From: Candidatus Bathyarchaeota archaeon
Lineage (GTDB): Archaea; Thermoproteota; Bathyarchaeia; Bathyarchaeales; DTEX01
Length of the DNA stretch: 64,000 bases
Direction of reading: 5' to 3'
NCBI GenBank assembly: GCA_963714275.1
Contig: CAVQNT010000007.1
Span: forward strand, 1-64,000
Shown here: positions 11,144 to 33,277 of the stretch, piece by piece
Layout of the letters: every line of letters begins with the position of its first letter
Position numbering within the stretch: the first letter of the stretch is position 1
Position numbers and translations under genes: made by a program
The notes under the pieces: generated by a model
The model's input: only the letters and a program-made list of their open reading frames with translations
Told to the model about the DNA's origin: nothing
Database searches by the model: none

Positions 11144-11686
11144 ATGAACGCAGCAAACAAGACTCGAGTTGCTACCGTCTGGCTCAGCGGATGTTCAGGA
11201 TGCCACATGTCATTCTTAGATCAGGACGAACGCCTCGTTGAGCTGGCTGAAAAAATACAGCTAGTCTACAGCCCAATAATGGACGTTAAGGTTTTTCCCG
11301 AAAACGTTGATGTTACGCTTGTCGAAGGCGCAGTGGCAAACGAGGAACAGTTGGAAACGCTCAGGATAGTTAGGGAACGAACGAAGGTCCTCATATCGCT
11401 GGGAGACTGCGCAGTCACCGGGAATGTCACAGGATTAAGGAACACGGTGTCGAACAGCGCGGAATCAGCACTCAAGAGGGCTTTTGTGGAAACCGCGGAC
11501 GTGAATGGTCAGATTCCGAACGAGGTTCCAAAGCTTCTGAAGCAGACAAGTCCGCTGCACGAAGTAGTCAAAGTGGACTATTACATACCGGGCTGCCCTC
11601 CGTCGGCTGACCTCATAAACTACGTTGTGACGGAACTGCTAGCGGGAAGGACGCCAAACATGGAGAACAGGTCGAAATATGGTTAA
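11144..11686 (+). CDS. hoxY: NiFe-hydrogenase small subunit (single-cluster, group 3d type)
   Basis: [19 protein letters not shown] and IPGCPP motifs; 180 aa. Confidence 0.92.
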
Positions 11687-13129
11687 TGGAGTTGGCTGAA
11701 AAGATGGACAAAATTGAGGTTTCTCCCGTAACCCGAATAGAGGGACATGGCAAGGTAACAATTTTCCTCAATAAAGACGGTACCGTTAAAGAGGCACGGT
11801 TCCAAGTTACCGATTTCAGAGGGTTCGAAAAGTTCTGCGAAGGACGCCCGTTCTACGAGATGCCCTCAATAACGTCGAGGACATGCGGAATCTGCCCCGT
11901 GAGCCACCTGCTTGCCTCTGCTAAGGCGTGCGATGAAATAGTAGCTGTTAACATTCCAAGGTCAGCTGAATTGCTGCGCCGCTTGATGCACATGGGTCAG
12001 ATAGTTCAGTCTCACGCGTTGAGCTTTTTCCACCTGTCCTCGCCTGACTTGCTTCTCGGAATGGACGCAGACCCTTCCGTAAGAAACGTTTTCGGTTTGA
12101 TCGGAAGCCACCCTGAACTGGCAAAAAAAGGAATTAAACTGAGAAAGTTTGGGCAGGAAGTCATTGAGCAGGCTCGCAGGCAAGAGGATTCATTCAAGCG
12201 ACTGGCTTGTGCCCGGCGGCGTGAAAACTCCGCTTTCGAAAGAAAAGGCTGAAAAGATGCTTGCCAATCTGCCTGAAGCCTTGAACATTACGCTTGAAAC
12301 GCTGTCCATGTTTAAGGATAAACTGGACGGTCTGGAAGAGGAAATAGAGAACTTTGGCAACTTCCCAACTTACTATCTAGGTCTCGTTACCCCGGATGGC
12401 GGACTTGAACACTACGATGGCAAAATAAGGGTGGTTGACCCGAAAGGCAAGATTGTCGTGGACAATCTAGACCCCAAGAAATATTTTGAGTACATCGGCG
12501 AGGCTGTCGAACCGTGGAGTTACATGAAGTTCCCGTTCTATAAATCCCTAGGATATCCGAATGGCGCTTACAGGGTAGGCCCGTTGGCTAGGCTTAACAT
12601 CGTTTCACACTGCGGCACCCCGTTGGCTGACGAAGAACTGAAAGATTTCAGGAAATTTGGCAAAAACGGAATCGTGCAAAGCACCTTCCTCTATCACTAT
12701 GCACGTTTGGTGGAGGCTCTTTTCTGTCTCGAAAAAACCAAGGAAATTCTTGAAGACCCGGAGGCTTACGCGGACAATGTTTGGGCTAAGGCTTCGGTTA
12801 ACCGTGGCGAAGGCGTGGGAGTTGCTGAGGCTCCAAGGGGCACCTTGATCCACCACTACAAGGTTGACAGGGAAGGCTTGATAACGTGGGTGAACATGAT
12901 TATCGCGACGGAAAACAACAACCTCGCCTACAATATGGCTGTCACGCAGGTCGCAAAGAAGTACGTCAAAGGGAAACATTTAAGCGAAGGCGTCTTGAAC
13001 AGGGTCGAAGCCGTCGTCCGAGCATTTGACCCTTGCCTGAGCTGCGCAACACACGAACTGGGAAAAATGGCTCTCGACGTGCAACTCTACGATTCAGAAA
13101 AAAGGCTCGTAGACAGACTAACTCGTTGA
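11686..13129 (+). CDS. hoxH: NiFe-hydrogenase large subunit, frameshift near 12160
   Basis: [10 protein letters not shown]1 [10 protein letters not shown] and L2 [12 protein letters not shown] followed by a cleavable C-terminal extension. Confidence 0.92.
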
Positions 13130-13347
13130 CAACGAAGCTTATTTTTCGGATATGCCGTTTTTCAATTCAGTAGAAATAATCTCGTTTGATAATTCGTTCA
13201 ACACACAAGAATATCATATTAAAGAGATGGTCGTTTTTCTTGCCGCATGGAATATTTTACTACAAATAGCTAGCTAGCTGTCAACAACGACTTGTCACTA
13301 AAAACAGGAATTCTTCTCATACCTAAACCTAGATAAGTTTGAGTCTT

Positions 13348-13572
13348 TGGTGGGGCTGGTCGGATTTGAACCGGCGACCTTTGCCCGGAGACAAGGCGTT
13401 GCTTGTTCCTACGGGTTTCTCCGTGCTCCAGAACTTCTTCATCCCATGTTCTGGTCCGCAAACCCGCTTGCTGCTTTCTGGAGCCCTTAACGGTTAGGCC
13501 GTTCGCGACCAACTGTCGTCATACCGTTCCAGCAACCGCCTTAATGGCGAGCTGTTACTAGACTACAGCCCC
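13348..13572 (-). tRNA. tRNA-Trp(CCA) with four BHB-type introns; 77-nt mature tRNA with encoded CCA
   Basis: Acceptor stem GGGGCTG/CAGCCCC, T-loop TTCAAAT, anticodon arm ACGGG-CTCCAGA-CCCGT after removing introns 13555-13527, 13514-13487, 13477-13417 and 13410-13381. Confidence 0.88.
13417..13477 (-). ncRNA. Box C/D guide RNA within the canonical (37/38) tRNA-Trp intron
   Basis: Guide GCGGGTTT before CGGA pairs with AAACCCGT. Guide TTCTGGAGC before CGGA pairs with GCTCCAGAA. ATGAAGA is C'-like. The N+5 rule gives C39 and C34. Confidence 0.75.
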
Positions 13573-13671: not shown

Positions 13672-13795
13672 GGGTTGCCGGCCACAGGGCGTGGGACCCA
13701 CCCGAACCCATTCCGAACTCGGAAGTTAAACCACGCTCCGTCCATGGTGTTAGTGCAGTCTTAGGCTGCGTGAAGCCAAGGAAGCTGGCAATCCA
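13672..13795 (+). rRNA. rrf: 5S rRNA (unlinked), divergent from tRNA-Trp
   Basis: Conserved CCCGAACCCATTCCGAACTCGGAAGTTAAACC core and terminal helix GGTTGCCGGC/GCTGGCAATC. Confidence 0.93.
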
Positions 13796-13987
13796 CTCAT
13801 TCTAAAGTCTTCAAACAAAAATAGAATCCCCCTTTCTGTGCGGTGGCTTAACTATGGTGTGATGCCAAGTTTTTGTGAAAATTGTTGTCGTATCGTCGAT
13901 TTTTCATTTTTTAGAATAGTTAATGTTAAAATCATTAATTCGTATTACATTCTATCCAATTCCAACAGTCTTGGAGAACAAAGAAAC

Positions 13988-15809
13988 ATGAGCATTGTTG
14001 AATATCTGGAAACCAAAGCGAACATTCTTAGGTTACACAGTATAAGAGCCACAACAAAGGCGGGATCAGGTCACCCTACGAGCTGCATGTCTTCCGCAGA
14101 AATTGTGGCGACACTGTTCTTTAAAGAAATGAACATTGACCCCTTAAACCTTGATTGCATAGACAATGACGAGTTCATATTGTCAAAAGGCCACGCTGCG
14201 CCAATTTTGTACGCTGCCCTCAGCTGAAGTAGGCGTTATTCCGAAAGAGAAAATCATGACCCTGAGAGAGTTCGCTTCTGAGCTGGAAGGGCACCCAGTT
14301 CCGAGGTTGAAAGGCGTAAGGGTTGGAACAGGCTCCCTAGGTCAAGGCTTGGCGACTGGCATAGGGATGGCGTACGCGAAGAAGCTGCATGGAGTCAATC
14401 ATCGGGTCTACGTTCTTCTCGGCGATGGCGAAATGGCTGAGGGTTCAGTGTGGGAGGCAATCAACTTCGCGGGACGACTTGGGCTCTCAAACCTGACCGC
14501 GATAACTGACATGAACCGTCTTGGCCAAAGTGGACCCACAATGTACGAGTGGGAAGCCGAAGCTTACGCTGAAAGGATTGCAGCCTTCAATTGGGACGTT
14601 TATGTCTGCGACGGGCACGATGTCAAAGAGCTTCTGGAAGTCTTCAGCAAGACGAAAAGGTCGAAAAAACCGTCCTTCATAGTAGCGAAGACCGTGAAGG
14701 GTAAAGGTGTCAGCTTCCTCGAAAACGTTGACGGCAGACACGGGAGACCCTTGACAAAGGAAGAACAGGAAAAAGCCATCAACGAAATAACGCCGAGAAT
14801 CCGTAACATTGTTTATCAACCAAAAAATTTTATCAAGGCAACAGTTCCAGCGAAGATTTCAGCAACCGAATACTCATTTGAGACAGACTATAAGTTGGGC
14901 GAAAAGGTCGCGACGAGATTAGCCTACGGTAAAGCCTTGCAGAAACTTGGAAGAATGAACAAGAACATGGTTGTCCTCGACGGCGACGTCCAGAACTCCA
15001 CGTATACGATTAACTTTTTCGAGGAGTTCCCTGAACGGAGCCTACAATGTTTTATAGCGGAACAGAACATGGTCAGCACGGCAGTCGGTCTGCAGACCCA
15101 CGGGTTCGACGTGTTTTTTTCAGACTTCGCTTGTTTTCTGACAAGAGCCTACGACCAGATAAGGATGGCTGCGTACTCCAGAGCTAACTTGAAAGTAACC
15201 GGGTCGCATGCAGGCATATCAATAGGCGAAGACGGTCCCTCGCAGATGGGCTTGGAAGACTTAGGCATGTTCCGCTCCTTAATGAACAGCATCGTCCTTT
15301 ACCCCTCCGACGCCGTGAGCAGCGAGAAACTTACGTGTTTGATGGCAAACTACAGAGGCATATCCTACCTTAGGACCACCCGACCAGCGACACCAGTAAT
15401 ATACGACAACAAAGAAGAATTAACCATAGGCGGTTCAAAGATTCTCAAGCAAGCCAGAAACGACAAAGCAACGATTGTGGCTGCCGGAGTGACAACGCAC
15501 GAAGCCTTGAAAGCCTACGACAAACTGAAACAAGACAACATTACCATTAGAATCATAGACTGCTATTCTGTAAAGCCCCTAGACGAGGCGACGTTGAGGA
15601 AGGCAGCCAAGGAAACGGGGCACCTCATAACGGTTGAGGACCATTATGCAGAAGGAGGACTCGGTGAAGCCATAGCTTCGTTGGGTCTGCAGCCCCACAT
15701 ACTTGCGGTGAGGAAGATGCCTCATTCAGGACCACCTGAAATGCTTATGGCTGAGCAAGGAATCGACGCCGAGGGCATAATCAAAGAGGTCAAGAAGATT
15801 CTGGGCTAA
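13988..15809 (+). CDS. tkt: Transketolase (full-length, ~607 aa), frameshift near 14220
   Basis: [24 protein letters not shown] motif GDGE...N, IAEQNM and GEDGPSQ. Confidence 0.92.
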
Positions 15810-17963: not shown

Positions 17964-18185
17964 GACTCGTCTCACTTCCAAGCAGCAACGAACATTGAAT
18001 GACTACTTAATGCCAATACAAACAACGTCTTTATAAAAATAACATCATAATAAAAAACAAACCTCACCTAAAAAAATTTCATCTAGTAAAGAAAAATTAT
18101 TATTACGGTCTTTTCTCTAGATTTAATAAGCGGTTCCCAAAAATATTAGGGTCAAGCCAGATTGTTGTGGGAGGATCAATGCCAA

Positions 18186-18923
18186 ATGAGTTTGTCGAAG
18201 TCAGAACTTGAACAGTACAACCGCCAGATGTTGATTGACGGTTGGGGAAAAGAAGGACAAACGAAACTCAAAAATTCCTCAGTTGCGGTTGTAGGCGTCG
18301 GCGGCTTAGGATGCGTGTCGTCAACGTATCTGGCAGCTGCAGGCGTTGGAAAGCTAATTTTGGTTGACAAGGACAAAACGAGCATGAGCGACCTGAACCG
18401 CCAAGTCCTCTATACACTGAAGGACATCGGACAATTTAAAGCTGAAACAGCCAAAAAAAGGCTGGAAGCTTTGAATCCAGAAGTTAAGGTTGCAGCCATT
18501 CTGGAAGAGGTCTCAGAGGAAAATGTTACAAAAATTATTAGTAATGTGGATGCGGTCGTCGATGGGCTTGACAACTGGAAAACAAGGTTCATAATCAACG
18601 ACTACTGCGTAAAAAGGCAGGTCCCATTCGTCCACGCAGGCGTCTCCCAGTTCTACGGGCAAATAACCACCGTGATTCCGGGGAAGGGACCATGCCTCAG
18701 ATGCATCTTCCCGAAAGAACCATCCGAAACAAAGACCAACCCGATCTTCGGAGGTACCCCCTCAGCCTTAGCCTCACTCCAAGTCATGGAGGTTATTAAA
18801 TGCCTGACAGGAATCGGGAACCCGCTGGTCGGAAGAATGCTGTTCATCGACGGAGAAGAAATGGCGATCGAAACAGCAGAAATAAAGAAAAATCCAAAAT
18901 GCCCAGCCTGTGGCTCTATTTAA
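18186..18923 (+). CDS. moeB: MoeB/ThiF (UbaA-like) adenylyltransferase
   Basis: YNRQ, GVGGLG, SDLNRQ, CLRC and CPAC motifs. Confidence 0.9.
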   Translation: MSLSKSELEQYNRQMLIDGWGKEGQTKLKNSSVAVVGVGGLGCVSSTYLAAAGVGKLILVDKDKTSMSDLNRQVLYTLKDIGQFKAETAKKRLEALNPEVKVAAILEEVSEENVTKIISNVDAVVDGLDNWKTRFIINDYCVKRQVPFVHAGVSQFYGQITTVIPGKGPCLRCIFPKEPSETKTNPIFGGTPSALASLQVMEVIKCLTGIGNPLVGRMLFIDGEEMAIETAEIKKNPKCPACGSI

Positions 18924-18943
18924 ATTTCATTATTCATATGAAG

Positions 18944-19043
18944 TGGTGCTCCGGCCGGGATTTGAACCCGGGTTTGCGACTTTCTTCTGTCTTATGTGGA
19001 CATCGAGAGGCCGCCATACTTGACCGAACTATACTACCGGAGC
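18944..19043 (-). tRNA. tRNA-Glu(CTC) with one 22-nt intron at 37/38
   Basis: GCTCCGG/CCGGAGC acceptor stem, GCGGC-CTCTCG|intron|A-GTCGC anticodon arm, GGTTCAAATCC T-arm and encoded CCA. Confidence 0.92.
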
Positions 19044-19387
19044 GTTGAACTAGACTACTTTTTTCATTTGCGTTTGCGGTATAAAGCGATATCGTCTTTC
19101 TCACTGTCTGCAAGTTCATGTTTTTTCGCTTGCTACGCATAGTCTAAGATTTTTACTTCCAGATATTGTCTTGTGTCTTCCCGATGGTTTATTTCTTTTT
19201 GGGCTTCCACTATAGTCAAGTTTTTCGCTTACTTTCCGTCAGCGCATACTTGATAACATAAAGTGTACTGGTTCTCCTTTTTATTATTTAGTTCTGACCA
19301 TAGCTAGCTTTGGTTTGTAAGTTAAATTATCTTTAGTAAAATTTGCTTCAGTAACTACTTTAAAAGCCATTTTTACCTTATAAAAAA

Positions 19388-19888
19388 ATGGTGGCATGTT
19401 ACATGGCCAAAAACACCATCGGAAAGGCACAAGAGGAAAGTTTAGAAGAATCCATTTTTAAAACATTGAACCACCAGAAAAGGCGAGACATCTTACGTTT
19501 CATAGGCGAATGGAAAGAAGCTACATTTCCCGAAATTAAGAATTCAATAGGAATTGAAGACAGCCCCAGCTTGTCCTATCATCTAAACGCGTTAGACCAT
19601 CTTGCGGTTCAAAAGGAAGGGAGATACAAGCTGTCCGAATTGGGACGTACTGCTTACAATTTTATGTGTAAGACCGCAACATACACAGCATCAACATCCA
19701 TTATAAGCTCTTTGAGAAAGGAAATTCCAGCAATAATAATCGCTAATGCTATTCTCTTGGCTGTTGCCATATTCTCAGTCTTTCAATTTGAAGGAAGACT
19801 TCACCAGATGACTACCTACAGTTTTGCTGTTCTCTGGTTTATCAGCAACATAATTCTCTATTCTATTCTAAAAAGAATAAGAAAGTGA
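19388..19888 (+). CDS. Winged-helix (ArsR-like) regulator with two C-terminal TM helices
   Basis: IFKTLNHQKRRDIL...LSYHLNAL...YKLSELG followed by hydrophobic helices. Confidence 0.75.
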   Translation: MVACYMAKNTIGKAQEESLEESIFKTLNHQKRRDILRFIGEWKEATFPEIKNSIGIEDSPSLSYHLNALDHLAVQKEGRYKLSELGRTAYNFMCKTATYTASTSIISSLRKEIPAIIIANAILLAVAIFSVFQFEGRLHQMTTYSFAVLWFISNIILYSILKRIRK

Positions 19889-19967
19889 CAATCTTAGTTA
19901 TTAATAAAACTGGAAGTAAGCCAAAGTAGAAAGGCTTTTAAAAAACGATAATGTATGTATAAAAGTT

Positions 19968-20477
19968 ATGATACCAACAAAAATGTTTTTCACGCAGGGT
20001 GTAGGAGTTCACAAAGACAAGCTGGCCTCGTTCGAACTTGCATTAAGACAAGCTGGCATTGAAAAATGCAATCTTGTGCGAGTGTCAAGTATATTTCCTC
20101 CCAACTGTAAGTTGATTTCAAAGGAAGAAGGCCTGAGTCTTCTAAAGCCTGGCCAAATAACCTTTGTTATTATGGCAAAAAATGAAACTAACGAACCGAA
20201 TCATCATGTTTCTGCAGCAATAGGACTAGCTAGGCGAAAAGAAGACGATGGATATGGTTATCTTGCAGAATATAGTTCGTTTGAAGAGACTGCCTCAAAA
20301 GCCGGAGACTACGCTGAGAATTTAGCAGCAACAATGCTGGCAATGACGTTTGGTATAGAATTAGATTCAGAAGCCACAAGCAGCAAGATTTCCAAAACTT
20401 CTGTCTGCCAGTCTGCCAAAGGGAATAAGGACAAGTTGTGGACAACAGTAGTTGCTGCAGCAGTTTTTATTATGTAG
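19968..20477 (+). CDS. pdaD: Pyruvoyl-dependent arginine decarboxylase
   Basis: SFELALRQAGIEKCNLVRVSSIFP self-cleavage motif and WTTVVAAAVF C-terminus. Confidence 0.92.
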   Translation: MIPTKMFFTQGVGVHKDKLASFELALRQAGIEKCNLVRVSSIFPPNCKLISKEEGLSLLKPGQITFVIMAKNETNEPNHHVSAAIGLARRKEDDGYGYLAEYSSFEETASKAGDYAENLAATMLAMTFGIELDSEATSSKISKTSVCQSAKGNKDKLWTTVVAAAVFIM

Positions 20478-20488
20478 TTGATTCTTCT

Positions 20489-21101
20489 CTAAGGTTCCTT
20501 CATGAATTCTAAAAATTCATTAAGTGAACGTTTTTCGAGGATGTAGTTTGTTTTCTTTTCCTCTTCTATTGTTGAGTGAGGTCTTGAACCATAATCGTGA
20601 CCTGGATAGACTTCAACATCGTCGTCAAGCTTCATTAATTTATTGAAAAGGCTGTTAAACATTTCCACCGAACTACCTCCAGGCAAATCCGTCCTACCGC
20701 ATTCTCCTACAAACAATGTATCGCCCGTTATGAGTTTATTTTCAATTAGTAAACATATGCTGTCTGGTGTATGTCCAGGCGTGTGGATCACTTTTATGAT
20801 TAGTTCACCTACTTTTAGAATGTCTCCTTCGCCTACTTCAATGTCTTTCTCGGTTTTCGACAGTTTATGGGCTACAATTTCTGAGTTAAAGCGTGATTTG
20901 ATTTTAGAATTATCCATAATGTGATCGCTGTGTTGATGAGTGTTAATGACATATCTTATGCACAACCCGTTTTTCGTTGCCAATAGAACAATAACATCAC
21001 CGTTGAAGCTTGGGTCGACAACAGACTGCTTCATTTGTACCTTCGTCTGCTATGATATAGGAAAAGTTATCGCCAACATGTTTAATCTGTCTGAAGAACA
21101 A
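20489..21101 (-). CDS. Metallo-beta-lactamase-fold hydrolase (glyoxalase II-like), frameshift near 21025
   Basis: THQHSDH, HTPGHT, TGDTLF and PGHDY motifs. The N-terminus (LFFRQIKHVGDNFSYII) is in another frame. Confidence 0.88.
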
Positions 21102-21121
21102 TTCAAAAAACAACCTTTCAT

Positions 21122-22483
21122 TTATCTAGCATATTCGTATTGTGAAAGACATTCGACCCTCATGCCCAATTTAGCTAAATCCTCAAATTTTTCAACTGAG
21201 CCTATACTTGTATCTATGGTTCTATATATCGGGTGAACCCACATATTTTCCGGTATAAGATTAAATTGAAGAGGAACCCTTTTCGTAATTCCATATTTTT
21301 CCAATCCTCTAATCATAGCATATTTCGTACATGCAAGGCGTACCGATGTGTAACTCTTTACCAACTGCGCCGCCCCAGATTCGCCAATTCCATGCCAAAT
21401 GGCTGCATCTTCTGGGGAACCTAAAGAGTATAAGACGAATTGGGGTGAAGATGGTGTTTCTTTATAATCATAGTTTGTTAGTTTGTCTCCATCAATTGTA
21501 AACTGATCCTCAGCCACCGCGATGCTGAAATCTTTTGGGTCAATATCGTTCGGGTAAAGTGGAGTCGTCTGATAGGTCACTTGAATGTTTTTCAGTTTTG
21601 TTCCGTCGAAGTATATTTTTCCTTTAGCTGCTCTTTTTGAGCCGAACCCTTTCTTTGAATGTGGAACCGTGAGAAGTGTTGTCCGGTTCTTCATGCTTCT
21701 CCCCATACAATTGTAAACATGCTCAATTGTCTCGTAGTCTCTATGTGTCTCCCTTATTATATGGTGTAACAAGCCATTAGTAGTTTCCTCATTAAGAATC
21801 TTTAAAGGCATTCGTATGATGGGAAAACAGAGGTCGATTCCGAATGACTCAGAGAGCTTTTTCAAACACTCTTGTTTTACACTGTCTACCATGTTCACAT
21901 AACTGTTTCCCGAATTTGTTAGGTAGTATTCAATTAGTTCTCCCTCAGATTTCGAAATGAGTGATCCTTCATATTTTTTCATGAACTTTTCATCTAACTT
22001 AAGACCTTCTGTTTTGACAAATGCAGATGGAAATGCGCTTTGTCCACTTTCCACTAATGACTTTCTCAAAGGGTTCGCTGAATACCTATCAGGCTCAATA
22101 TCGTCCGTGTTCAACAAGAAAGGGACAATCCTTCCTCTAGGAGGTTCCTCTAGCATCTCACAGATGCTAATAACATCTTCCTTGTTTATTTCATGAAAAT
22201 CATGAAGGTAAAAGTAATTTCCACATACCTCTAATAATCTTGCAGCAATTATGCCTTGAACTTCCTCAAGGGTTAGATGTGGATATGAATATTCGACAGA
22301 AGATCTTAGAAAGAAGTGATCCTCATCAAGAATGATTTCCTTCACTTGATTTTTATTCACATCAAGTAAATGGACTTTTTTATTTTTATATGCCTTGAAA
22401 TGGCGTAATTCCTCTACAATGGTTTGTATAGCTGGTCTAGAATATTCAAGGAAATCAAGTATCATTTTGCCCAGATTTGCCAA
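21122..22483 (-). CDS. Hypothetical 453-aa soluble protein
   Basis: Long intact ORF, tightly co-directional with its neighbours; no motif recognised. Confidence 0.8.
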   Translation of the reverse strand: MANLGKMILDFLEYSRPAIQTIVEELRHFKAYKNKKVHLLDVNKNQVKEIILDEDHFFLRSSVEYSYPHLTLEEVQGIIAARLLEVCGNYFYLHDFHEINKEDVISICEMLEEPPRGRIVPFLLNTDDIEPDRYSANPLRKSLVESGQSAFPSAFVKTEGLKLDEKFMKKYEGSLISKSEGELIEYYLTNSGNSYVNMVDSVKQECLKKLSESFGIDLCFPIIRMPLKILNEETTNGLLHHIIRETHRDYETIEHVYNCMGRSMKNRTTLLTVPHSKKGFGSKRAAKGKIYFDGTKLKNIQVTYQTTPLYPNDIDPKDFSIAVAEDQFTIDGDKLTNYDYKETPSSPQFVLYSLGSPEDAAIWHGIGESGAAQLVKSYTSVRLACTKYAMIRGLEKYGITKRVPLQFNLIPENMWVHPIYRTIDTSIGSVEKFEDLAKLGMRVECLSQYEYAR

Positions 22484-22492
22484 TAAAAAAAG

Positions 22493-23332
22493 TTACCCCC
22501 TTTCCAATGACTCTACGACATAAATATAATCATTAATCATCGGAGGTCCACGATACAATCTTACCAAGCTAAAGTCCTCTCTAAATCCGTTTCGCTTTAA
22601 TAGATTAAGGATTTTAGATTCTTTTTCAGGAACACACAAAGAAACCTCGCCACGATTCAGTTTTTTAAGAGTTGTCTTTAAGAGGTCCATGGCTACATCA
22701 TCATATCCTCCTCTGCAAACCAAGGGTCCTATTTCGGATTCTTCATCAAATACTTTTACCACAATAAATCCGAGTATCCAATCATCATCTGTGCATACAT
22801 GACAAAGGTTGGTTGGGTCATGTAGAACGGGTTCCAATAACCTTCTTCGAGATCCGCCAAAACATAGCCTATCTAGATCAAATATTTGTTGCATATCATC
22901 GTTTTGGGCTATTCTTATATCACTTCTGGTTGATGCGGAAAACCCTTTTCCCTTCAATACTATGAATCTTGAATCAGATTGAAAATTTTGCTTTGCATAA
23001 AAAGGGACTCGATCAACATAACTGTATAAGCCAATGGTTTCGACACCCTTGTTTGTTAAGTATTCGATTGCGTTTTTGACTATTAGCGATCCGCCTCCCT
23101 TTCCACGATAGTTTTCGTTGACTATGATGTTTCCCAACCAGCCTACTCGATTGTAACTTATTGTTGTCGCAATGCCGACTCTTTCAGAGTTAAAAAATAA
23201 AACAAAACATCCATTTGGCTCTAAGCTCATCATGTATTCGAAGTCCTCTTCAACAGAATTCCAGTTCATGGTGTCAGATAGACGAACAGCAAATTCCAAG
23301 TCTCCCAATGTCATCTTTTCGACATGAAACAT
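22493..23332 (-). CDS. Tandem GNAT acetyltransferase
   Basis: IIVNENYRGKGGG acetyl-CoA motif and a second GNAT-like domain with IGPL. Confidence 0.85.
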   Translation of the reverse strand: MFHVEKMTLGDLEFAVRLSDTMNWNSVEEDFEYMMSLEPNGCFVLFFNSERVGIATTISYNRVGWLGNIIVNENYRGKGGGSLIVKNAIEYLTNKGVETIGLYSYVDRVPFYAKQNFQSDSRFIVLKGKGFSASTRSDIRIAQNDDMQQIFDLDRLCFGGSRRRLLEPVLHDPTNLCHVCTDDDWILGFIVVKVFDEESEIGPLVCRGGYDDVAMDLLKTTLKKLNRGEVSLCVPEKESKILNLLKRNGFREDFSLVRLYRGPPMINDYIYVVESLERG

Positions 23333-23386
23333 ATATCGTACCCTTACAAAATTTATCGCATTAAATGAAATTAACCATAATGTAAT

Positions 23387-24463
23387 TCAAAATTTCAATT
23401 TAAGCCTACTTCTCTTATCGAGGTTCCTGCATCTTTCAAGTGTTGCCTTAACAATGAGAGGAAAAGCAATAGTTGCGTCGCAGTAGCATGTTGCATATTT
23501 ACCTCCAGGCTTCTCCTTCCCCCAGCTAATGCCTTCCCTAAATGTGCATCCAGATAATCCCCCCCATTGAGGACTATCTGTTGTTATCTGGAAGCCATAA
23601 TCATGTTCCGAATCGGGTGTTCCGAAATGCCTTTCAAGGAAAGCTGTCTGCTGAACATAGTTCTTTGGCACACCCCCTCCAACAAATATAACTCCCGTCT
23701 TAGACGCTGCCTTCTTAATTGATAGTATTTCGTAGTTATCCTTTATCTGATCAATTGTAAGTGGACTTTGACCCTTTTTTACGAAATGGATATAGTGTTC
23801 TGTTACTGCAAGTCCTAAAGAACTATCATTAAAAGCTGGTACAAAGATGGGGACATCATTTTTCCAGCAGTTCCAAATCACAGAATCTTTTTTATCCTCA
23901 CTAGGGGCTTTCTCGTCAATTAACTTTCCAAGATCATTTAAAAATTGTCTCGATGAAATGTTACTTATTTTTTCATTTGCCATCTTGTCTGCAAGATAAA
24001 TTATCATGTTTTCAATTGTTCCGAATTTTGATGCATCTCCCCCGAACAAAAACGTGTCATATATCCTATCAATTCCTTCCTTGCGTAGCAGTACATCGTC
24101 AGCATCCGGTGAACCAATATAGTGATGCTCCCCCAACGCCTCCACGAAATCATGGTACATGTTAGCCCCTGTGCTCACGATGACGTCGACCATGTTCCTT
24201 CTCACGGCGGTCGATATTACACCTTTCATCCCGGCTGGAACCATTGCCCCGGCGATGCCAAGAAAAATAGTCGGTCTCTCCGTATCCTCCAGCATGTCTA
24301 AGTAAATATTTGCACACATTGCTAAGGTACGGGATTGAAAGGAGGTTCGGTTGAACGCGTCCAATAATTCTGAAATAGTCTGTATCTTTTCTAAATCTAA
24401 TGGCTTGATTGTTTCCTTTAAGTATTCATTCTTTGAATTTGTTTCTACTGAATTAGGTGTCAT
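23387..24463 (-). CDS. dys: Deoxyhypusine synthase family protein
   Basis: AGAMVPAG, STGAN, GGGVPKN and WGGLSGCTFREGISWGK (catalytic Lys) motifs. Confidence 0.9.
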   Translation of the reverse strand: MTPNSVETNSKNEYLKETIKPLDLEKIQTISELLDAFNRTSFQSRTLAMCANIYLDMLEDTERPTIFLGIAGAMVPAGMKGVISTAVRRNMVDVIVSTGANMYHDFVEALGEHHYIGSPDADDVLLRKEGIDRIYDTFLFGGDASKFGTIENMIIYLADKMANEKISNISSRQFLNDLGKLIDEKAPSEDKKDSVIWNCWKNDVPIFVPAFNDSSLGLAVTEHYIHFVKKGQSPLTIDQIKDNYEILSIKKAASKTGVIFVGGGVPKNYVQQTAFLERHFGTPDSEHDYGFQITTDSPQWGGLSGCTFREGISWGKEKPGGKYATCYCDATIAFPLIVKATLERCRNLDKRSRLKLKF

Positions 24464-24609
24464 GCTTCAATAAATATAATTATGATTTTATAAATTAAAT
24501 GTTTGATATATATTCAGTTACGGTTTTCATTTGAAACAAAATTACGAAAAACTTTATAGAAAGTGTGGGTATTACCTTAGTAATAATTCGTAAAATAATA
24601 TAAATAATA

Positions 24610-25131
24610 ATGATAACTGGAAGTTCAGTAATTATGGAATCAAAACTGAATGTTAAAATTTTGCGTAATGCCAAGGTTGCCATGTTTCCCTTCATTGATT
24701 ACTTCAAGGGATTCGAGAAAGTTGAGGCTGTTAAGCGTATATTTGGGGATAAGACAGAAAGTGTACTCGATAATCTTAAGATAGAATTTGGTGGAAGGCG
24801 TGGCTACATGGGAGTAAGCAATATGGATGGGCACCTAATGATAAGCGCGGAATATTTGAATAGTGGCGACATTATGGACATATACCTCGATATAATCCAC
24901 GAGTTGACCCATGTTAAGCAGTTTTTGGACGGAAAGGAACTCTTTGACCGTCGTTACAACTATGTCGAGAACCCTACAGAAATTGAGGCTCACTACAACG
25001 CTGTTGAGGAGGCGCGTAGATTAGGATTAAGCGACGAGAAAATTTGTAACTACCTTCAGACTGAGTGGATAACAGATGAAGATTTATTGGTCTTAGCGAA
25101 GGCTCTTAACGTGAAATGTAAACCGACTTAA
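24610..25131 (+). CDS. Hypothetical protein with a zincin-like HExxH motif
   Basis: IIHELTHVKQ...EIEA pattern. Confidence 0.6.
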   Translation: MITGSSVIMESKLNVKILRNAKVAMFPFIDYFKGFEKVEAVKRIFGDKTESVLDNLKIEFGGRRGYMGVSNMDGHLMISAEYLNSGDIMDIYLDIIHELTHVKQFLDGKELFDRRYNYVENPTEIEAHYNAVEEARRLGLSDEKICNYLQTEWITDEDLLVLAKALNVKCKPT

Positions 25132-25239
25132 TAGTTACATAAAACATCATCTCTAAATCTTATTTAAAGGTTGATTTCTGTCGACAAATTTCTAAATGTT
25201 AAAAACATCTATATACTTTTGATTTGTTAGCTTAGACCT

Positions 25240-26127
25240 ATGAAAAAAGGGAAATTTTTAGGTTGGTCTAACAGTCATATTCCTTTGAGAGACGCAGATG
25301 TTGTGATTTTTGGTGTGCCTTTAGGGAAAAATTCTATAAAAATGGTTAATTTTCTTAGAGATGCGAGCTGGTTTATTGAAAGTCTTGATCCGAATAGAGA
25401 AAGAGATTTGCTTGAAAGTATAAAAATTTTTGACATAGGTAATATATCATTAACAAGCCTTGACGATATTTCTCGACAAACAAAAAGGATTATTGACCTG
25501 AATAAAATTCCATTAATTCTAGGTAAATCCCATTTACTGACTTTATATGCTTTGATGGCTTTTGATGATGTAAAGTTAGTTAGCTTCGATGCTCATGCTG
25601 ACATTAAAGATTATTACATGGACAAGAGAGTTGCTTGTTCTGTTGAGCCCTTGAGCCTGCAAGAGCCTGCAAGGTACAACTGTGCGACTTGGTTGAGAAG
25701 GTTTTGCGAGCTTGGCAATGAGAGAAAAGTTTGTTTGGTTGGCATGAGATCCTGTGGTGAAGAGGATTACAATTATTTAAAAGAGAATAGAATCCTGCAT
25801 TTTACACCTAATGATATTAAAAAGAATTTGCCATGTGTGAAAGGAAAGTTAGCAAGTTTTTGTCGAAACTCTAAGATCTACGTAAGCGTAGACATGGATT
25901 TTTTTGATCCTTCTATAGCCCCTTCTGTTGAACACCCAGAGCATAATGGACTATCTTTCATAGAATTTGCGGAATTGGTAAAGGAACTCTGTGAAGAAAA
26001 GATTGTTGGTTTAGATCTGGTAGAAATACAATATCTACCAGAAAAAATTAGGGAAGTCACGGATTCTTTAGCAGTGAGAATTATTTTGGAAATACTTTCA
26101 GGAATTAAATTTAATAAACCACAATAA
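25240..26127 (+). CDS. speB: Agmatinase/arginase-family ureohydrolase (divergent)
   Basis: DAHAD, SVDMDFFDPS and GLDLVE motifs. GKSH replaces GGxH and NCAT replaces HGT. Confidence 0.75.
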   Translation: MKKGKFLGWSNSHIPLRDADVVIFGVPLGKNSIKMVNFLRDASWFIESLDPNRERDLLESIKIFDIGNISLTSLDDISRQTKRIIDLNKIPLILGKSHLLTLYALMAFDDVKLVSFDAHADIKDYYMDKRVACSVEPLSLQEPARYNCATWLRRFCELGNERKVCLVGMRSCGEEDYNYLKENRILHFTPNDIKKNLPCVKGKLASFCRNSKIYVSVDMDFFDPSIAPSVEHPEHNGLSFIEFAELVKELCEEKIVGLDLVEIQYLPEKIREVTDSLAVRIILEILSGIKFNKPQ

Positions 26128-26181
26128 AATGGCGTGAAATTTCAAGTTAATTATATATTCAGGATGTTTTTATATGACTGA

Positions 26182-26568
26182 ATGATAGTCATGAAGTTTA
26201 TATTTTCGTATGTTGGAATAAGAGTGACGAATTTACAGAAATCTATCGATTTCTATACAAAATTACTTGGTATGAAGGTTGTGGATCAGGGTAAAATTGA
26301 GCAAACTAAGGGGGAAACTGTTGCCCTAGTAAGCGAGAAAAGCGATTTCGTTTTGGAACTAAACTATTATGAAGAAAACAGCCCTTACAACACTAAATAC
26401 ACTGCAGGAGAAGGATTGGATCATCTTGGTTTCAAGGTTGATAATCTTGAAAAGGCTCTGGAAGAAGCCAAGTTAGCAGGATACCGAATCATCTTAGAAA
26501 TGAAAGCAGATAACAATAGATGGGTATATATAGAGGACCCAGATGGGATCTGGATTGAACTATACTAA
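26182..26568 (+). CDS. VOC/glyoxalase I family protein
   Basis: SIDFYTKLLG, LELNY, DHLGF and EDPDGIWIEL motifs. Confidence 0.88.
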   Translation: MIVMKFIFSYVGIRVTNLQKSIDFYTKLLGMKVVDQGKIEQTKGETVALVSEKSDFVLELNYYEENSPYNTKYTAGEGLDHLGFKVDNLEKALEEAKLAGYRIILEMKADNNRWVYIEDPDGIWIELY

Positions 26569-26703
26569 TCGTTATGACTAATGCACATCGAAGAGATAGC
26601 TTTTCCAACGACAAGTGTAAGGTTTTCGCATACCAATAATTTTTTTGACTCTCTTGGCGGATTGTTTAATTTATATTAGGAAGAATTGTTATATTTTTTA
26701 TAG

Positions 26704-27201
26704 GTGATAATGTTGGATATTAAGGATCTATTCAATTACAATTGGTACTGTCGAAGTAAGTTTCTGAAGAGCATGGCTGAGATTCCTTGGGAAACTGTTA
26801 CCGAAAACTGTGGGGCTAGCTTCGACTCTATCCGAGACATATATGTACATAGCCTTCAAGCTGAACATGCGTGGATCAGACGTTTGACTGCAAAAAGTAC
26901 GGAGGGAATCTATGAGACTCCGTTCAGCAAGTTCGTCAGCATAAAGGATATTCAAGATTACGCTGACAAGGTTGAGACCGAAACAAACGGCTACTTGAGC
27001 AGTTTGTCGGATAAAAGGCTGGAAAGTATCTTTGAGTTTGAAGGATGGGATAAAAAGACACATAGGTACAAGATTGAGGATGTCTTGATGCACATAATTG
27101 AGGAAGAGATTCATCACCGTGGAGAACTTTTATGCATCTTCTGGCAACACGACCTTCAACCGCCATACACCAGCTATACTGCCTTCAAGGGTGAATCCTA
27201 A
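26704..27201 (+). CDS. DinB family protein
   Basis: YNW..., SIRDIYVH..AE..W and HIIEEEIHHRGE motifs. Confidence 0.85.
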   Translation: MIMLDIKDLFNYNWYCRSKFLKSMAEIPWETVTENCGASFDSIRDIYVHSLQAEHAWIRRLTAKSTEGIYETPFSKFVSIKDIQDYADKVETETNGYLSSLSDKRLESIFEFEGWDKKTHRYKIEDVLMHIIEEEIHHRGELLCIFWQHDLQPPYTSYTAFKGES

Positions 27202-27987
27202 CAAAATTCCTTCTGTGACCCAAAAAAATAATACATATTTACTCTATCTACAGACTTGGAACAATTAGTATTCAACAATTTTCGGCTACACTAGCGCTAG
27301 TTTTCTCTCTATGGCCAATAAGATATTCTTTCCATAATCCATCGGGCGTATTTGGAACAAGGTTTTACTCTCGATTTATTGCTAGCTAGCACTTAAAATT
27401 AAGACAGAAGAAAGTATGTATTGAAACAATTGCCTTTCCCAAGCCTTAATTAATCAGCTCTAGTTCAAAGTTTCAGAATCATGTGCTAGGACATATTGAC
27501 GATGTTGTTTTTATATTCTATCTCGGACTCATATGTTTAATTTATTAAATAAGTTATCAATTAAACGTGATTAGGGAAGGGAAAGGAAAGGGAATTATAA
27601 AGAAAAATATGAAAAGACTTTAATCTTGAGTAGTCCTCTCGAAAAACTTAACTAATTCCCAGACTTCATTAACCATCTACTTAGTGAATAAAAATCACTT
27701 CTAACGTGTACTTGGACTTAAATCCTAACAGTACAAGTACACAAACCATTTAGTGAGCTAGCAACTGCAGTCTCATAAACAAAGATTAAAAACTGTAACG
27801 ATAGTAAAACTTAACAGTCCAAGAAGAGTACCCGTTAAAGTTTTCTCATTTTTCTTCATTTATATAATCTTCTTAATGTCGTAACTTTTTTGTAATATCT
27901 GACCTGAAATTTAATAGGGTATGAAATCGTGGTATGGATTTCCCGTGCATATTCTTTATTATTATAGATTAAAATTTTACATCGACT

Positions 27988-29043
27988 ATGACTAGAAATA
28001 AGTTTCAATTAGTATACCTACTAATGATGCTAACAATTGCAGTGCCTAGCTTAGCATATGCTTTCATTTATGAGCAACGATCACTTAACTTCACTCAAAC
28101 TATAGTAAGAATGTGGTTTAATAATAATTGGAATTATCGAAAAAGTCATATTATTAGTGGGATTGGAACAAACGCGGGAACTAACTACCAGATTAGGATT
28201 GTTGTAGTAAATGGTACTGGAACTGACAACGGAGAGACCGTGTATATTAATAATAAGGTTAGAACCGATTTCGGTGATATCCGATTCACTACTGTAGACG
28301 GAATTCTATTGGATTATTGGCGGGAATCTTTGAATGTTAGTAAGAATGCAACTTTTTGGGTAGAGATAGCAGGCAACTTAACTGGACAAACTCAAACAAT
28401 TTATCTTTATTATGGCAACTCCATAGCAACTACAACAAGCAGTGGATATAATACCTTCATATTCTTTGACGATTTTAGCGGAGACTTGAGCAAATGGACA
28501 AAACACAAAAACGGTGTTAACATCTATATTGAATCAGGTTATCTAGTCTGTGGTGGAGGAGTAACCTCTAGCCCTTATGGTCACACTGTTCTTGGTTCTA
28601 ACGCAAGTTATTCTGGGTTCTTGAATGGCGTTATAGAAGCTGACGTTTACCCGTCTACTGAAGCACTTCCTGAGATAGGGTTTAGAGGAACCTTTAGTTT
28701 GAACACTGGGTATAAAGGCAGGTGGGATTGTCGTTCAGGAACTGAGTCGCCTTGGATGAAACCTCCATATAATAATTGGCAAGCGTTCGGCTCATCTGTT
28801 ACTAGATTCGGTATCCCAAACCAATGGCAAAAAGTAAAACTTGTCATCTATGGATTGACTTTTAGGATTTACAGTAATGGAGTGCTAAAGTCCACTGCCA
28901 CAGACTCCCAATACACTGCCTCTGGAGAAATATCTCTCCAAAACCATTATGGCTCTTATTCTAGATTTGATAATGTCAGAGTAAGAAAATATGTGGAGCC
29001 TGAACCTTCACATGGCATTTGGGGCAACGAACAAACCCGTTAA
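27988..29043 (+). CDS. Secreted DUF2341-domain protein with a C-terminal beta-sandwich
   Basis: Signal peptide, WNYRK, DFGDIRFT, LDYWRE, FWVEI, YLYYGN, FIFFDDF and FDNVRVRKY motifs. Confidence 0.8.
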   Translation: MTRNKFQLVYLLMMLTIAVPSLAYAFIYEQRSLNFTQTIVRMWFNNNWNYRKSHIISGIGTNAGTNYQIRIVVVNGTGTDNGETVYINNKVRTDFGDIRFTTVDGILLDYWRESLNVSKNATFWVEIAGNLTGQTQTIYLYYGNSIATTTSSGYNTFIFFDDFSGDLSKWTKHKNGVNIYIESGYLVCGGGVTSSPYGHTVLGSNASYSGFLNGVIEADVYPSTEALPEIGFRGTFSLNTGYKGRWDCRSGTESPWMKPPYNNWQAFGSSVTRFGIPNQWQKVKLVIYGLTFRIYSNGVLKSTATDSQYTASGEISLQNHYGSYSRFDNVRVRKYVEPEPSHGIWGNEQTR

Positions 29044-29287
29044 TGTATTGTAAATAGAGACAAACATTACTCCAGAAATATAACAACACACACATGTAAG
29101 AGTGGGAGAGTTAGGAAATATTTTTTGTTATTTTGTTTTGTATGTGATTCATCTCTCAAACATATATACATACATTTTTCACACACCTTAAGAGAATAAA
29201 AAAAGGGAGTAAAAGAGAATACGAGTAAATCTGAATATGTGAGAGGAAGAGCGAGAACGTAAACAAATGTCAGAGAGAGAGAAAAAG

Positions 29288-29313
29288 ATTAAATTTTAGT
29301 CCCCAACCCCAAA
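29288..29313 (+). repeat. Dispersed intergenic repeat, copy A
   Basis: ATTAAATTTTAGTCCCCAACCCCAAA; matches copies at 30171, 33278, 34801, 45790 and 46486. Confidence 0.75.
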
Positions 29314-29348
29314 GAAGAGAATTACAGACTCTGACCATGTGAGGATGC

Positions 29349-30059: not shown

Positions 30060-30170
30060 AACTATACATATATTCCAGAATGGATATTTGAACTTCATTT
30101 TTACTTGATTGCTGTGGCTTAATCATCTTGCTAGCAATCATAATACCAAGTCAAGCTAGCTAGCTAGGGG

Positions 30171-30197
30171 TTAGTTTTTAATCCCCAAACCCCAAAC
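30171..30197 (+). repeat. Dispersed intergenic repeat, copy B
   Basis: TTAGTTTTTAATCCCCAAACCCCAAAC, directly preceded by GCTAGCTAGCTAG. Confidence 0.75.
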
Positions 30198-30539
30198 ATC
30201 TCTCTTTTTCCCAATCATTCTCTCATTCTCTCTCTTATATTACACCTACACACAAAACTAAATTGGACTGTTGAGTTCTACATTGAAAGAACTTTATTGA
30301 AAACGTCAATGAATTGTGTGTGTGCAATGTCAATGCGGTCAGTTCAAAAACTAAAATGAGAAATGGGTAAATGGGGAAATAGAATAAAAAGGGGAATTAT
30401 TCTAACCTTTAGAATAATTAACTAGCTAAACGAACACTCATGGGTTGTTAATCTTAGGTTCTTAGAAAAGTTCATAAATGAATAAAATTCATATTTTGTT
30501 TTGGTTGAGATGAGCTTCAGCTAGCTTGAGTAGAAGATT

Positions 30540-33185: not shown

Positions 33186-33277
33186 GTTTATTCCTGCCGA
33201 ACAAATATTAGAACAGATTCTCCTACGCTCCAATGATTATTCAGGAAAGTACATAAAGGTTAGCTGAGCTTAGCTAG

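What the first reader, a model, noticed from the sequence alone, without database searches (positions are those of the whole stretch)
13348..13572. tRNA-Trp interrupted by four introns, with 12-, 9- and 6-nt internal exons
Seen: the 225-nt gene gives a 77-nt cloverleaf only after removing four segments: 29 nt at 17/17a, 28 nt at 28/29, 61 nt at 37/38 and 30 nt at 43/44. Each has a BHB-like fold with 4-bp central helices CTAG/CTGG, GACG/CGTT, CTCC/GGAG and ACCC/GGGC (one mismatch) plus 3-nt bulges. Known: multi-intron tRNAs occur in TACK archaea; the maximum I recall is three, which I cannot verify here. Inference: the CCC of exon 4 is needed both for the outer helix of intron 3 and the central helix of intron 4, so splicing must be ordered. 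Standard finders would probably miss or mis-call this gene.
Basis: partly seen in the sequence, partly recalled or inferred. Interest (0 to 1): 0.85.

Follow-up and report, generated by a model that had tools for sequence, protein, structure and literature searches.

The report
Four-intron tRNA-Trp gene in Bathyarchaeia
This is a real tryptophan tRNA gene of an uncultivated archaeon that is cut into five pieces by four introns, one more than the long-quoted maximum of three, and many related species share the same layout.

Summary
Confirmed. On the minus strand, 13572..13348 holds a 225-nt gene. Removing 29, 28, 61 and 30 nt at positions 17/17a, 28/29, 37/38 and 43/44 leaves a 77-nt tRNA-Trp(CCA) with encoded CCA.

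The strongest support is comparative. I parsed 69 orthologous loci from related species genomes. All 69 splice to tRNA-Trp. 39 carry all four introns; the others lack one, two or three of them exactly at the predicted junctions.

Bulge-helix-bulge pairing is kept in register, with compensatory changes. Stem pairs co-vary across exons. The genome encodes two EndA paralogs, RtcB and fibrillarin. No second tRNA-Trp was found.

The 61-nt canonical intron looks like the known box C/D guide of tRNA-Trp introns, aimed at C34 and C39.

Introns 3 and 4 compete for C39-C41, so they cannot be cut from one fold. The order is inferred, not shown. No spliced RNA was seen.

The nearest named relatives are Bathyarchaeia. 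Multi-intron tRNAs are known: up to three classically, and up to five in a 2026 Asgard preprint. This is therefore a new member of a known kind.

The parts
13348..13572 (-). tRNA-Trp(CCA) gene, 225 nt, five exons and four introns, CCA encoded (13348-13350)
   Evidence: The spliced product is called tRNA-Trp(cca) by ARAGORN. 69 of 69 parsed orthologs splice to the same tRNA.
13556..13572 (-). Exon 1 (17 nt, positions 1-17): acceptor 5' strand, D-stem 5' strand and part of the D loop
   Evidence: Acceptor pairs 5:68 and 6:67 co-vary with exon 5.
13527..13555 (-). Intron 1 (29 nt) at 17/17a in the D loop, HBh' type
   Evidence: Central helix 4/4, h' 5 bp. Absent precisely in L004-L006, which are from the same genus. 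Register pairs 346/357, against 58-127 in shifted controls.
13515..13526 (-). Exon 2 (12 nt, positions 17a-28)
   Evidence: It lies contiguous with exons 1 or 3 in orthologs that lack intron 1 or intron 2.
13487..13514 (-). Intron 2 (28 nt) at 28/29, HBh' type
   Evidence: Central helix 4/4, h' 5 bp. The local MFE fold is the BHB. Register pairs 265/287, against 12-119 in controls.
13478..13486 (-). Exon 3 (9 nt, positions 29-37) with anticodon CCA
   Evidence: Invariant in 69 of 69 orthologs; it was also the search anchor.
13417..13477 (-). Intron 3 (61 nt) at the canonical 37/38 site, hBH type; carries a box C/D-like guide RNA
   Evidence: Central helix 4/4, h 3 bp, h' 0. Present in 69 of 69 orthologs. 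Conserved blocks. Sub-threshold Rfam matches to the C/D-box families sR40 and sR3.
13459..13467 (-). D' guide in intron 3, complementary to C35-U43; its fifth base upstream of D' pairs with C39
   Evidence: Read. Conserved across the orthologs.
13455..13458 (-). D' box (CGGA here; CUGA in several orthologs)
   Evidence: Alignment.
13436..13442 (-). C' box (AUGAAGA here; AUGAUGA in L017, L023 and L025)
   Evidence: Alignment.
13424..13435 (-). D guide (12 nt), complementary to G31-A38; its fifth base upstream of D pairs with C34
   Evidence: The MFE folds form this duplex.
13420..13423 (-). D box (CGGA; NNGA in orthologs); overlaps the 3' strand of intron 3's central BHB helix
13411..13416 (-). 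Exon 4 (6 nt, positions 38-43): 3' strand of the anticodon stem
   Evidence: Pair 28:42 co-varies with exon 2. It takes part in three mutually exclusive pairings.
13381..13410 (-). Intron 4 (30 nt) at 43/44, relaxed HBh' type
   Evidence: Central helix 3/4 (A38:C), h' 3 bp. 24 of 44 distinct orthologous introns have A:U there. Absent precisely in 11 of the 69 orthologs.
13348..13380 (-). Exon 5 (33 nt, positions 44-76): variable loop, T arm, acceptor 3' strand, A73, CCA
   Evidence: C50:A64 mismatch.

Best explanation
This is the functional tRNA-Trp(CCA) gene of a Bathyarchaeia-like archaeon, and the only one found in the assembly. It is transcribed as a precursor of about 225 nt.

Four introns are removed by the archaeal protein-only pathway. 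The splicing endonuclease EndA, here probably a two-subunit alpha2-beta2 type, cuts in the 3-nt bulges of a bulge-helix-bulge motif at each intron. RtcB then joins the exons.

Introns 1, 2 and 4 are short non-canonical introns whose motif is built from the last exon bases plus the intron's own hairpin (HBh').

Intron 3 is the ancient canonical tRNA-Trp intron. It carries a box C/D guide that directs fibrillarin to 2'-O-methylate C34 and C39.

Exon 4 (6 nt) must pair in turn with three partners: the 3' part of intron 4 (for cutting intron 4), G29-G31 (the anticodon stem, which is the outer helix needed to cut intron 3), and the D' guide. Maturation therefore passes through successive folds. My inference is that intron 4, and probably introns 1 and 2, go before intron 3.

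Shown: the gene anatomy, the junctions, motif conservation and the presence of the enzymes.
Inferred: actual cutting, the order of cutting, and the methylations.
For: (1) Splicing at the four sites gives a cloverleaf that ARAGORN calls tRNA-Trp(cca). This set ties for the top cloverleaf score with one 1-nt variant, among 12,139 scorable BHB-compatible products.

(2) All 69 parsed orthologs give tRNA-Trp after removal at the same sites (one uses 25/26 instead of 28/29). The intron sets were:
- 1,2,3,4 in 39
- 1,3,4 in 8
- 1,2,3 in 7
- 3,4 in 7
- 2,3,4 in 3
- 3 only in 3
- 25/26,3,4 in 1
- 1,3 in 1
. Every predicted exon junction therefore exists as contiguous DNA in some relative.

(3) BHB register pairs (four central plus three h' pairs), counted over distinct sequences with shifted-partner controls:
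- I1: 346/357 (controls 58-127)
- I2: 265/287 (12-119)
- I3: 304/441 (162-199)
- I4: 288/308 (71-195)
There are compensatory changes, for example I1 h'2 A:U 20 / G:C 26 and h'3 G:C 21 / C:G 19.

(4) Cross-exon covariation: 6:67 is U:A in 32 and C:G in 37; 28:42 is C:G in 66, U:G in 2 and U:A in 1.

(5) Machinery in the same genome: two EndA paralogs that are 27% identical, RtcB and fibrillarin.

(6) No other tRNA-Trp. ARAGORN made 39 calls, the Rfam tRNA model gave 35 matches, and a BLAST of the spliced product hit only this locus plus a 21-nt fragment.

(7) Intron 3:
- Blocks are conserved across the order.
- Canonical CUGA and AUGAUGA boxes occur in some orthologs.
- Spacers are 12 nt.
- The fifth base upstream of D' and of D faces C39 and C34.
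- There are weak Rfam matches to sR40 (17.4 bits, E 0.31) and sR3 (10 bits, E 3.1).
- Reviews state that tRNA-Trp introns (median 65 nt) nest a box C/D RNA aimed at C34 and U39 (PMC4090602, passages).

(8) Exclusive pairings. Constrained folds gave -75.6 kcal/mol with intron 3's hBH, -73.9 with intron 4's BHB, and -70.2 when intron 4's BHB is forced together with intron 3's central helix alone.
Against: - No RNA evidence of any junction. The one RNA-library contig that lies on the gene (run X19, 152 nt, 13359-13500) still holds introns 3 and 4 and shows no joint. It may be precursor or carried-over DNA.
- Thermodynamic folding alone does not single out the BHBs. The whole-precursor MFE and the local folds give the BHB only for intron 2. 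They give a near-BHB for intron 4, a continuous helix over the 5' site of intron 1, and the guide-target duplex for intron 3.
- Intron 4's central helix has an A:C mismatch.
- Intron 3 has no h' helix.
- The T stem has a C50:A64 mismatch.
- The terminal box C of the guide is poorly matched in this genome, and the Rfam C/D matches are far below their thresholds (50 and 41 bits).
- The assembly is 91% complete, so a second tRNA-Trp in the missing part cannot be excluded.
- The second batch of orthologs was chosen for long matches, so 39 of 69 is not a frequency.
Confidence: 0.9

Rival explanations
1. The locus is a decayed or silent tRNA relic. The working tRNA-Trp lies in the unassembled 9% of the genome.
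For: Completeness is 91%. The T stem has a C:A mismatch. No spliced RNA was seen.
Against: Exons are near-invariant while introns vary, across 69 species genomes. Compensatory changes occur in the stems across exons and in the intron helices. The C:A pair is shared by all six genomes of the genus and by four others. None of the relatives' loci showed a decayed exon. No other tRNA-Trp signal was found.
Confidence: 0.03
2. The gene is real but the intron model differs. For example, intron 1 may be cut one base further in on each side, leaving an 11-nt D loop. Alternatively, one segment may be kept as an enlarged loop.
For: The variant with intron 1 boundaries (18,45) ties for the top cloverleaf score. 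One ortholog (L017) fits best one base downstream. The local MFE for intron 1 has no 5' bulge.
Against: The BHB register at 17/17a is paired in 346/357 cells, against at most 127 in shifted controls. For the other three introns, relatives likewise show the predicted junctions as contiguous DNA.
Confidence: 0.05
3. The segments are removed, but not all by EndA acting on a BHB. For example, intron 4 (imperfect central helix) or intron 3 (no h') may need another factor or another fold.
For: Intron 4 pairs 3/4 and intron 3 has h' 0. The MFE folds differ from the BHB.
Against: Relaxed hBH and HBh' motifs are the accepted substrates of the two-subunit crenarchaeal-type enzymes (recalled; the motif classes are described in the preprint read). 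Two EndA paralogs are present. In 24 of 44 distinct orthologous copies of intron 4 the central helix is 4/4. No group I or group II intron signal appeared in the Rfam scans.
Confidence: 0.04

Closest known systems
Multi-intron tRNA genes of Thermoproteales (for example Pyrobaculum calidifontis, 71 introns in 46 genes)
   Same: BHB introns at canonical and non-canonical positions, several per gene. Neighbouring introns can require one to be removed before the next motif can form (PMC8450103, passages read).
   Different: That paper gives a maximum of three per gene; this gene has four. The lineage is also different: the nearest named relatives here are Bathyarchaeia. The introns here are single-copy in the genome. 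I saw no sign of the intron families shared between genes that are described for Thermoproteales.
[quoted passage not shown]
   Same: Many D-arm introns that annotators miss. Up to five intervening sequences in one gene. Introns sit at BHB motifs. Relatives differ by presence or absence of an intron (bioRxiv 10.64898/2026.10.13.758758, sections 1 and 2.1 and passages; PMC11291895, passages).
   Different: A different phylum-level lineage. In this genome the load appears lower: the partial census found mostly 1-2 introns per gene, and Trp was the only gene with four. Their per-gene tables are supplements that I could not open.
Box C/D guide nested in the canonical tRNA-Trp intron (Haloferax volcanii, 105 nt; Sulfolobus solfataricus, 65 nt, a stable circle)
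   Same: Same position (37/38), similar length (61 nt), and guides complementary to the regions around positions 34 and 39 (PMC4090602; PMC3326292).
   Different: Position 39 is C here, not U. The D and D' boxes read CGGA and the terminal C box is poor. The guide's target, exon 4, is itself flanked by a further intron, which is not the case in those organisms.
Multi-intron nuclear tRNA genes of the red alga Cyanidioschyzon merolae
   Same: BHB introns in the D arm, at 37/38 and elsewhere. Ordered removal has been shown by RT-PCR, with the outer introns removed before the canonical one (PMC3728597, passages).
   Different: A eukaryote, with a maximum of three introns per gene, some of them permuted. 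Here there are four, the exons are colinear, and the order is untested.

Membership tests
Archaeal BHB (EndA/RtcB-spliced) tRNA introns | [quoted passage not shown] | tested here: met
   I1, I2 and I3 pair 4/4; I4 pairs 3/4 (relaxed). The register is conserved in orthologs, against shifted controls.
Archaeal BHB (EndA/RtcB-spliced) tRNA introns | At least one flanking helix (h or h') of 2 bp or more | tested here: met
   I1 h' 5, I2 h' 5, I3 h 3, I4 h' 3.
Archaeal BHB (EndA/RtcB-spliced) tRNA introns | Removal restores a canonical cloverleaf | tested here: met
   ARAGORN calls tRNA-Trp(cca). Top cloverleaf score among 12,139 alternatives. 69 of 69 orthologs do the same.
Archaeal BHB (EndA/RtcB-spliced) tRNA introns | Splicing endonuclease and RtcB ligase encoded in the genome | tested here: met
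   PF01974 twice. TIGR00324 on both proteins. PF01139 at 592 bits.
Archaeal BHB (EndA/RtcB-spliced) tRNA introns | Cleavage and ligation seen in RNA (junction reads, circular introns) | tested here: inconclusive
   Only contigs of public runs could be laid. One RNA-library contig is unspliced and no joints were found.
tRNA-Trp | Anticodon CCA in a 7-nt loop with U33 and a purine at 37; 7/4/5/5-bp stems; G18G19; T loop | tested here: met
   ARAGORN drawing and cloverleaf score of 14/15. There is one C50:A64 mismatch and a U13:U22 mismatch.
tRNA-Trp | Archaeal TrpRS identity elements (A73, G1:C72; recalled, not from a call) | tested here: met
   A73 and G1:C72 are read. That these are the identity elements is recalled.
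Box C/D guide sRNA (tRNA-Trp intron type; Rfam sR40 and sR3 as nearest models) | C'/D' and C/D boxes with about 12-nt spacers | tested here: inconclusive
   D' CGGA, C' AUGAAGA and D CGGA with 12-nt spacers. Canonical CUGA and AUGAUGA occur in some orthologs. The terminal box C is poor in this genome.
Box C/D guide sRNA (tRNA-Trp intron type; Rfam sR40 and sR3 as nearest models) | Guide complementarity that places the target opposite the fifth base upstream of D or D' | tested here: met
   The D' guide pairs C35-U43, with C39 at the fifth position. The D guide pairs G31-A38, with C34 at the fifth position (read). The duplex appears in MFE folds.
Box C/D guide sRNA (tRNA-Trp intron type; Rfam sR40 and sR3 as nearest models) | Score over the Rfam gathering threshold | tested here: not met
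   sR40 scored 17.4 bits against 50; sR3 scored 10 bits against 41. I therefore say it works like these families and do not file it as a member of either.
Split or permuted tRNA genes | Exons at separate loci or in permuted order | tested here: not met
   All five exons are colinear within 225 nt. The same holds in the orthologs.

The most novel reading that the evidence does not exclude
Bathyarchaeia are a third hot-spot of tRNA-intron accumulation, independent of Thermoproteales and Asgard archaea. In this lineage a four-intron tRNA-Trp has been kept across several families, while single introns were lost precisely and repeatedly.

The 6-nt exon 4 works as a three-way switch: central helix of intron 4, then anticodon stem (the outer helix of intron 3), then target of the intron-borne D' guide. 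This imposes a fixed maturation order and couples splicing to 2'-O-methylation of C39 and C34.
Probability: 0.3. Interest if true: 0.65.

Novelty: new member of a known kind. Interest (0 to 1): 0.5.

Why it matters
- It extends four-intron tRNA genes, including a 6-nt exon, to a TACK lineage where I found none described. Searches turned up no paper on Bathyarchaeia tRNA introns.
- It shows why tRNA-Trp goes unannotated in such genomes: ARAGORN and the Rfam tRNA model both miss it. That affects completeness and codon-usage calls for a very abundant sediment group.
- Close relatives that differ by exactly one intron, including within one genus, are a natural series for studying how BHB introns are lost or gained.
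- The overlapping demands on exon 4 give a concrete, testable case of ordered splicing coupled to guide-RNA methylation.

Tried and rejected
- **RNA evidence.** The look-up of sequencing runs listed 23 runs; 20 hold part of the stretch and only one of those is on record as RNA. Read laying on X19, X22, X23 (RNA) and X1 (DNA) gave no joints. X22 and X23 laid nothing. X19 gave an unspliced contig over 13359-13500 plus 5S rRNA pieces. This neither shows nor excludes splicing.
- **ARAGORN as a uniqueness test.** Rejected, because it called 1,406 of 16,770 alternative products a tRNA. I replaced it with a cloverleaf score.
- **A 'best BHB within +30 nt' heuristic**. It picked wrong boundaries in several loci, including intron 4 of the window's own gene. 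I replaced it with anchor-based parsing.
- **The blind decoder.** It failed on 11 of 35 genes in the second batch, where intron 3's motif is too relaxed to be enumerated. Those genes were classified by anchors only.
- **Whole-precursor and local MFE folding**. It does not reproduce the BHBs of introns 1 and 3, so I do not use it as support.
- **Intron mobility.** BLAST of the four introns against the genome found no further copies. A 17-nt match at C3:229149 lies in what looks like coding sequence, and I take it as chance.
- **Census of other tRNAs**. It is partial: it needs an intact T arm and a near-perfect acceptor stem, and it handles class I tRNAs only. Two loci stayed unresolved (C2:623203-623366 and C2:557651-557770). 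AT-rich 'solutions' such as C2:468173-468389 and C3:14509-14754 are spurious.
- **Second batch of loci.** Of 40 regions fetched, 5 were dropped before counting. One had no anchors (L066). In four, no 5' acceptor was found (L095, L096, L098, L104).
- **Supplements closed.** Per-gene intron counts in the Asgard preprint (its Tables S3 and S4) and in PMC11291895 (Supplementary Data 4) could bear on how common four-intron genes already are in print.

Full report
**What is there.**
- The feature lies on the minus strand.
- From 13572 down to 13348 the sequence starts with a 7-nt acceptor 5' strand. It ends with the complementary 3' strand, A73 and an encoded CCA.
- ARAGORN draws that 77-mer as tRNA-Trp(cca). 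The only blemishes are C50:A64 in the T stem and the common U13:U22.
- The unspliced gene is invisible to ARAGORN, both by default and in intron mode. It is also invisible to the Rfam tRNA model, on the window and on the whole genome.

**Is it more than chance?**
- With the usual BHB geometry, introns 1-3 have 4 of 4 central pairs and intron 4 has 3 of 4 (A38:C). In that geometry the central helix is formed by exon bases x-5..x-2 with intron bases n-5..n-2, and each cut falls after the second bulge base.
- Each intron has a flanking helix.
- A blind enumeration found 147 BHB-like candidates in the gene. They make 16,770 disjoint combinations that leave 71-78 nt.
- ARAGORN accepted 1,406 of these, so it does not discriminate.
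- A cloverleaf score based on stem pairs plus U8, A14, GG, U33 and R37 did discriminate. Only two of the 12,139 scorable products reached the top value.

**Comparative evidence (the decisive part).**
- A DNA search of 40 relatives found the locus in 39 of them.
- The match ranges already showed clean gaps that equal intron 1, intron 2 or intron 4.
- I parsed 34 loci.
- After an order-level search of 401 genomes, in which 241 had a match at E <= 1e-12, I fetched 40 more regions chosen for long matches. Of these, 35 could be parsed.
- All 69 spliced products are called tRNA-Trp(cca).
- 39 of the 69 carry all four introns. They come from four of the tool's family bins: f1, f7, f11 and f12. The other intron sets are listed in the For line.
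- Three genomes of the window's own genus lack intron 1. There the D loop is contiguous and reads exactly as the predicted junction.
- One ortholog (L015) has its second intron at 25/26 instead of 28/29.
- Because the second batch was selected, 39/69 is not a frequency. The safe statement is that at least 39 of the 401 sampled species genomes have the four-intron gene.

**Motif conservation.**
- I counted pairs in the fixed BHB register (four central pairs plus the first three h' pairs) over distinct sequences. Controls had the 3' partner shifted by 1 or 2 bases.
  - Intron 1: 346/357 (controls 58-127)
  - Intron 2: 265/287 (12-119)
  - Intron 3: 304/441 (162-199)
  - Intron 4: 288/308 (71-195)
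- The h' helices show compensatory changes.
- The mature stems co-vary across exon boundaries: 6:67 is U:A in 32 and C:G in 37; 28:42 is C:G in 66, U:G in 2 and U:A in 1.
- Against this, energy folding alone does not yield the BHBs. The local MFE is the BHB only for intron 2 and close to it for intron 4. It is a bulge-free helix for intron 1 and a guide-target duplex for intron 3.

**Intron 3.**
- It is present in all 69 orthologs and has blocks conserved across the order.
- Read as a box C/D RNA, it has these elements:
  - D' is CGGA (CUGA in several orthologs).
  - C' is AUGAAGA (AUGAUGA in three orthologs).
  - D is CGGA (NNGA elsewhere).
  - Both spacers are 12 nt.
  - A co-varying short stem lies between D' and C'.
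- The fifth base upstream of D' pairs with C39, and the fifth base upstream of D pairs with C34.
- These are the two positions methylated through the tRNA-Trp intron in Haloferax (PMC4090602). Complementarity to the same regions was noted for the stable 65-nt circle of Sulfolobus (PMC3326292).
- Rfam gives only sub-threshold matches to the C/D families sR40 and sR3. In both, the aligned stretch includes the D' guide and box.
- The terminal box C is poor here.
- I conclude that it works like the known tRNA-Trp intron guide. I do not file it under an Rfam family.

**Machinery and uniqueness.**
- The genome has two EndA paralogs of 185 and 189 aa that are 27% identical. Both match the endA model, and the second also matches beta-subunit models weakly. 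This fits the two-subunit enzyme type that accepts relaxed motifs; that property is recalled.
- RtcB and fibrillarin are present.
- No second tRNA-Trp was found. The assembly is 91% complete.

**Order of splicing.**
- C39-C41 pair either with G29-G31 or with intron 4's GGG. The first pairing is the anticodon stem, the only flanking helix intron 3 has. The second is the central helix of intron 4.
- Constrained folds put the two states at -75.6 and -73.9 kcal/mol. Forcing both central helices costs more, at -70.2.
- The BHBs of introns 1 and 2 are compatible with each other and lie near the MFE (-80.2 against -83.0).
- I infer that intron 4 goes before intron 3, for two reasons. A finished anticodon hairpin would compete with intron 4's weak helix. 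In Cyanidioschyzon the canonical intron was removed last (PMC3728597).
- Exon 4 is also the target of the D' guide, which makes a third exclusive pairing.

**Who and how new.**
- The closest named relatives of a window protein are Candidatus Bathyarchaeota/Bathyarchaeia MAGs, at 60-67% identity.
- The tRNAscan-SE 2.0 paper says archaeal tRNA genes contain up to three introns.
- A preprint of October 2026 reports up to five intervening sequences per gene in three Asgard families.
- I found nothing on Bathyarchaeia tRNA introns (the two candidate papers were checked).
- In this genome a partial census found mostly one or two introns per gene, and Trp alone had four.
- The kind is known. The member, its conservation and the 6-nt exon's triple duty are new.

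Noticed in passing
window 13269-13368 and G000:C2:266180-266279 (L105): A 100-nt repeat, 98% identical. It covers the last 21 nt of tRNA-Trp plus 79 nt of its 3' flank, and recurs on another contig. On C2 it borders ORFs of unknown family and a HEPN_AbiV gene on one side, and sugar-metabolism genes on the other. It could be an attachment-site remnant of an integrative element.
   Followed up: partly
window 11686-13129 and 13838-15809: A NiFe-hydrogenase large subunit and a transketolase each appear as two overlapping ORFs in different frames (11686-12252 / 12149-13129; 13838-14227 / 14166-15809). These could be frameshifts, assembly indels or split genes.
   Followed up: no
window 18944-19043 (-): The window's other tRNA is called Arg(tcg) by default ARAGORN. 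Intron-aware reading gives Glu(CTC) with a 22-nt canonical intron.
   Followed up: partly
window 13361 and 13375 (positions 64 and 50 of the tRNA): A C50:A64 mismatch in the T stem is shared by all six genomes of the genus and by four others. Relatives have U:G (32), C:G (14) or U:A (13). It may be a tolerated C:A wobble or a base change after transcription; this is untested.
   Followed up: partly
G000 genome-wide, e.g. C2:906202-906319, C2:664693-664821, C6:162149-162258, C2:207810-207937, C3:236824-236956: Several two-intron tRNA genes (Val-TAC, Lys-CTT, Arg-TCG, Arg-TCT, Asn-GTT) are missed or mis-called by ARAGORN. About a dozen isoacceptors remain unfound. Two candidate loci are unresolved: C2:623203-623366 and C2:557651-557770.
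   Followed up: partly
L015 (G033:C33, about 36720-36917): This ortholog has a 32-nt intron at 25/26 instead of 28/29, with an 11-bp h' helix. It is either a slid intron or an independently gained one.
   Followed up: partly
window 13674-13793 (+): A 5S rRNA gene lies 101 nt away, divergent from tRNA-Trp, so the two share a short promoter region.
   Followed up: no
window about 18000-38000: G+C drops from about 0.47-0.50 to 0.33-0.40 beyond about 18 kb.
   Followed up: no
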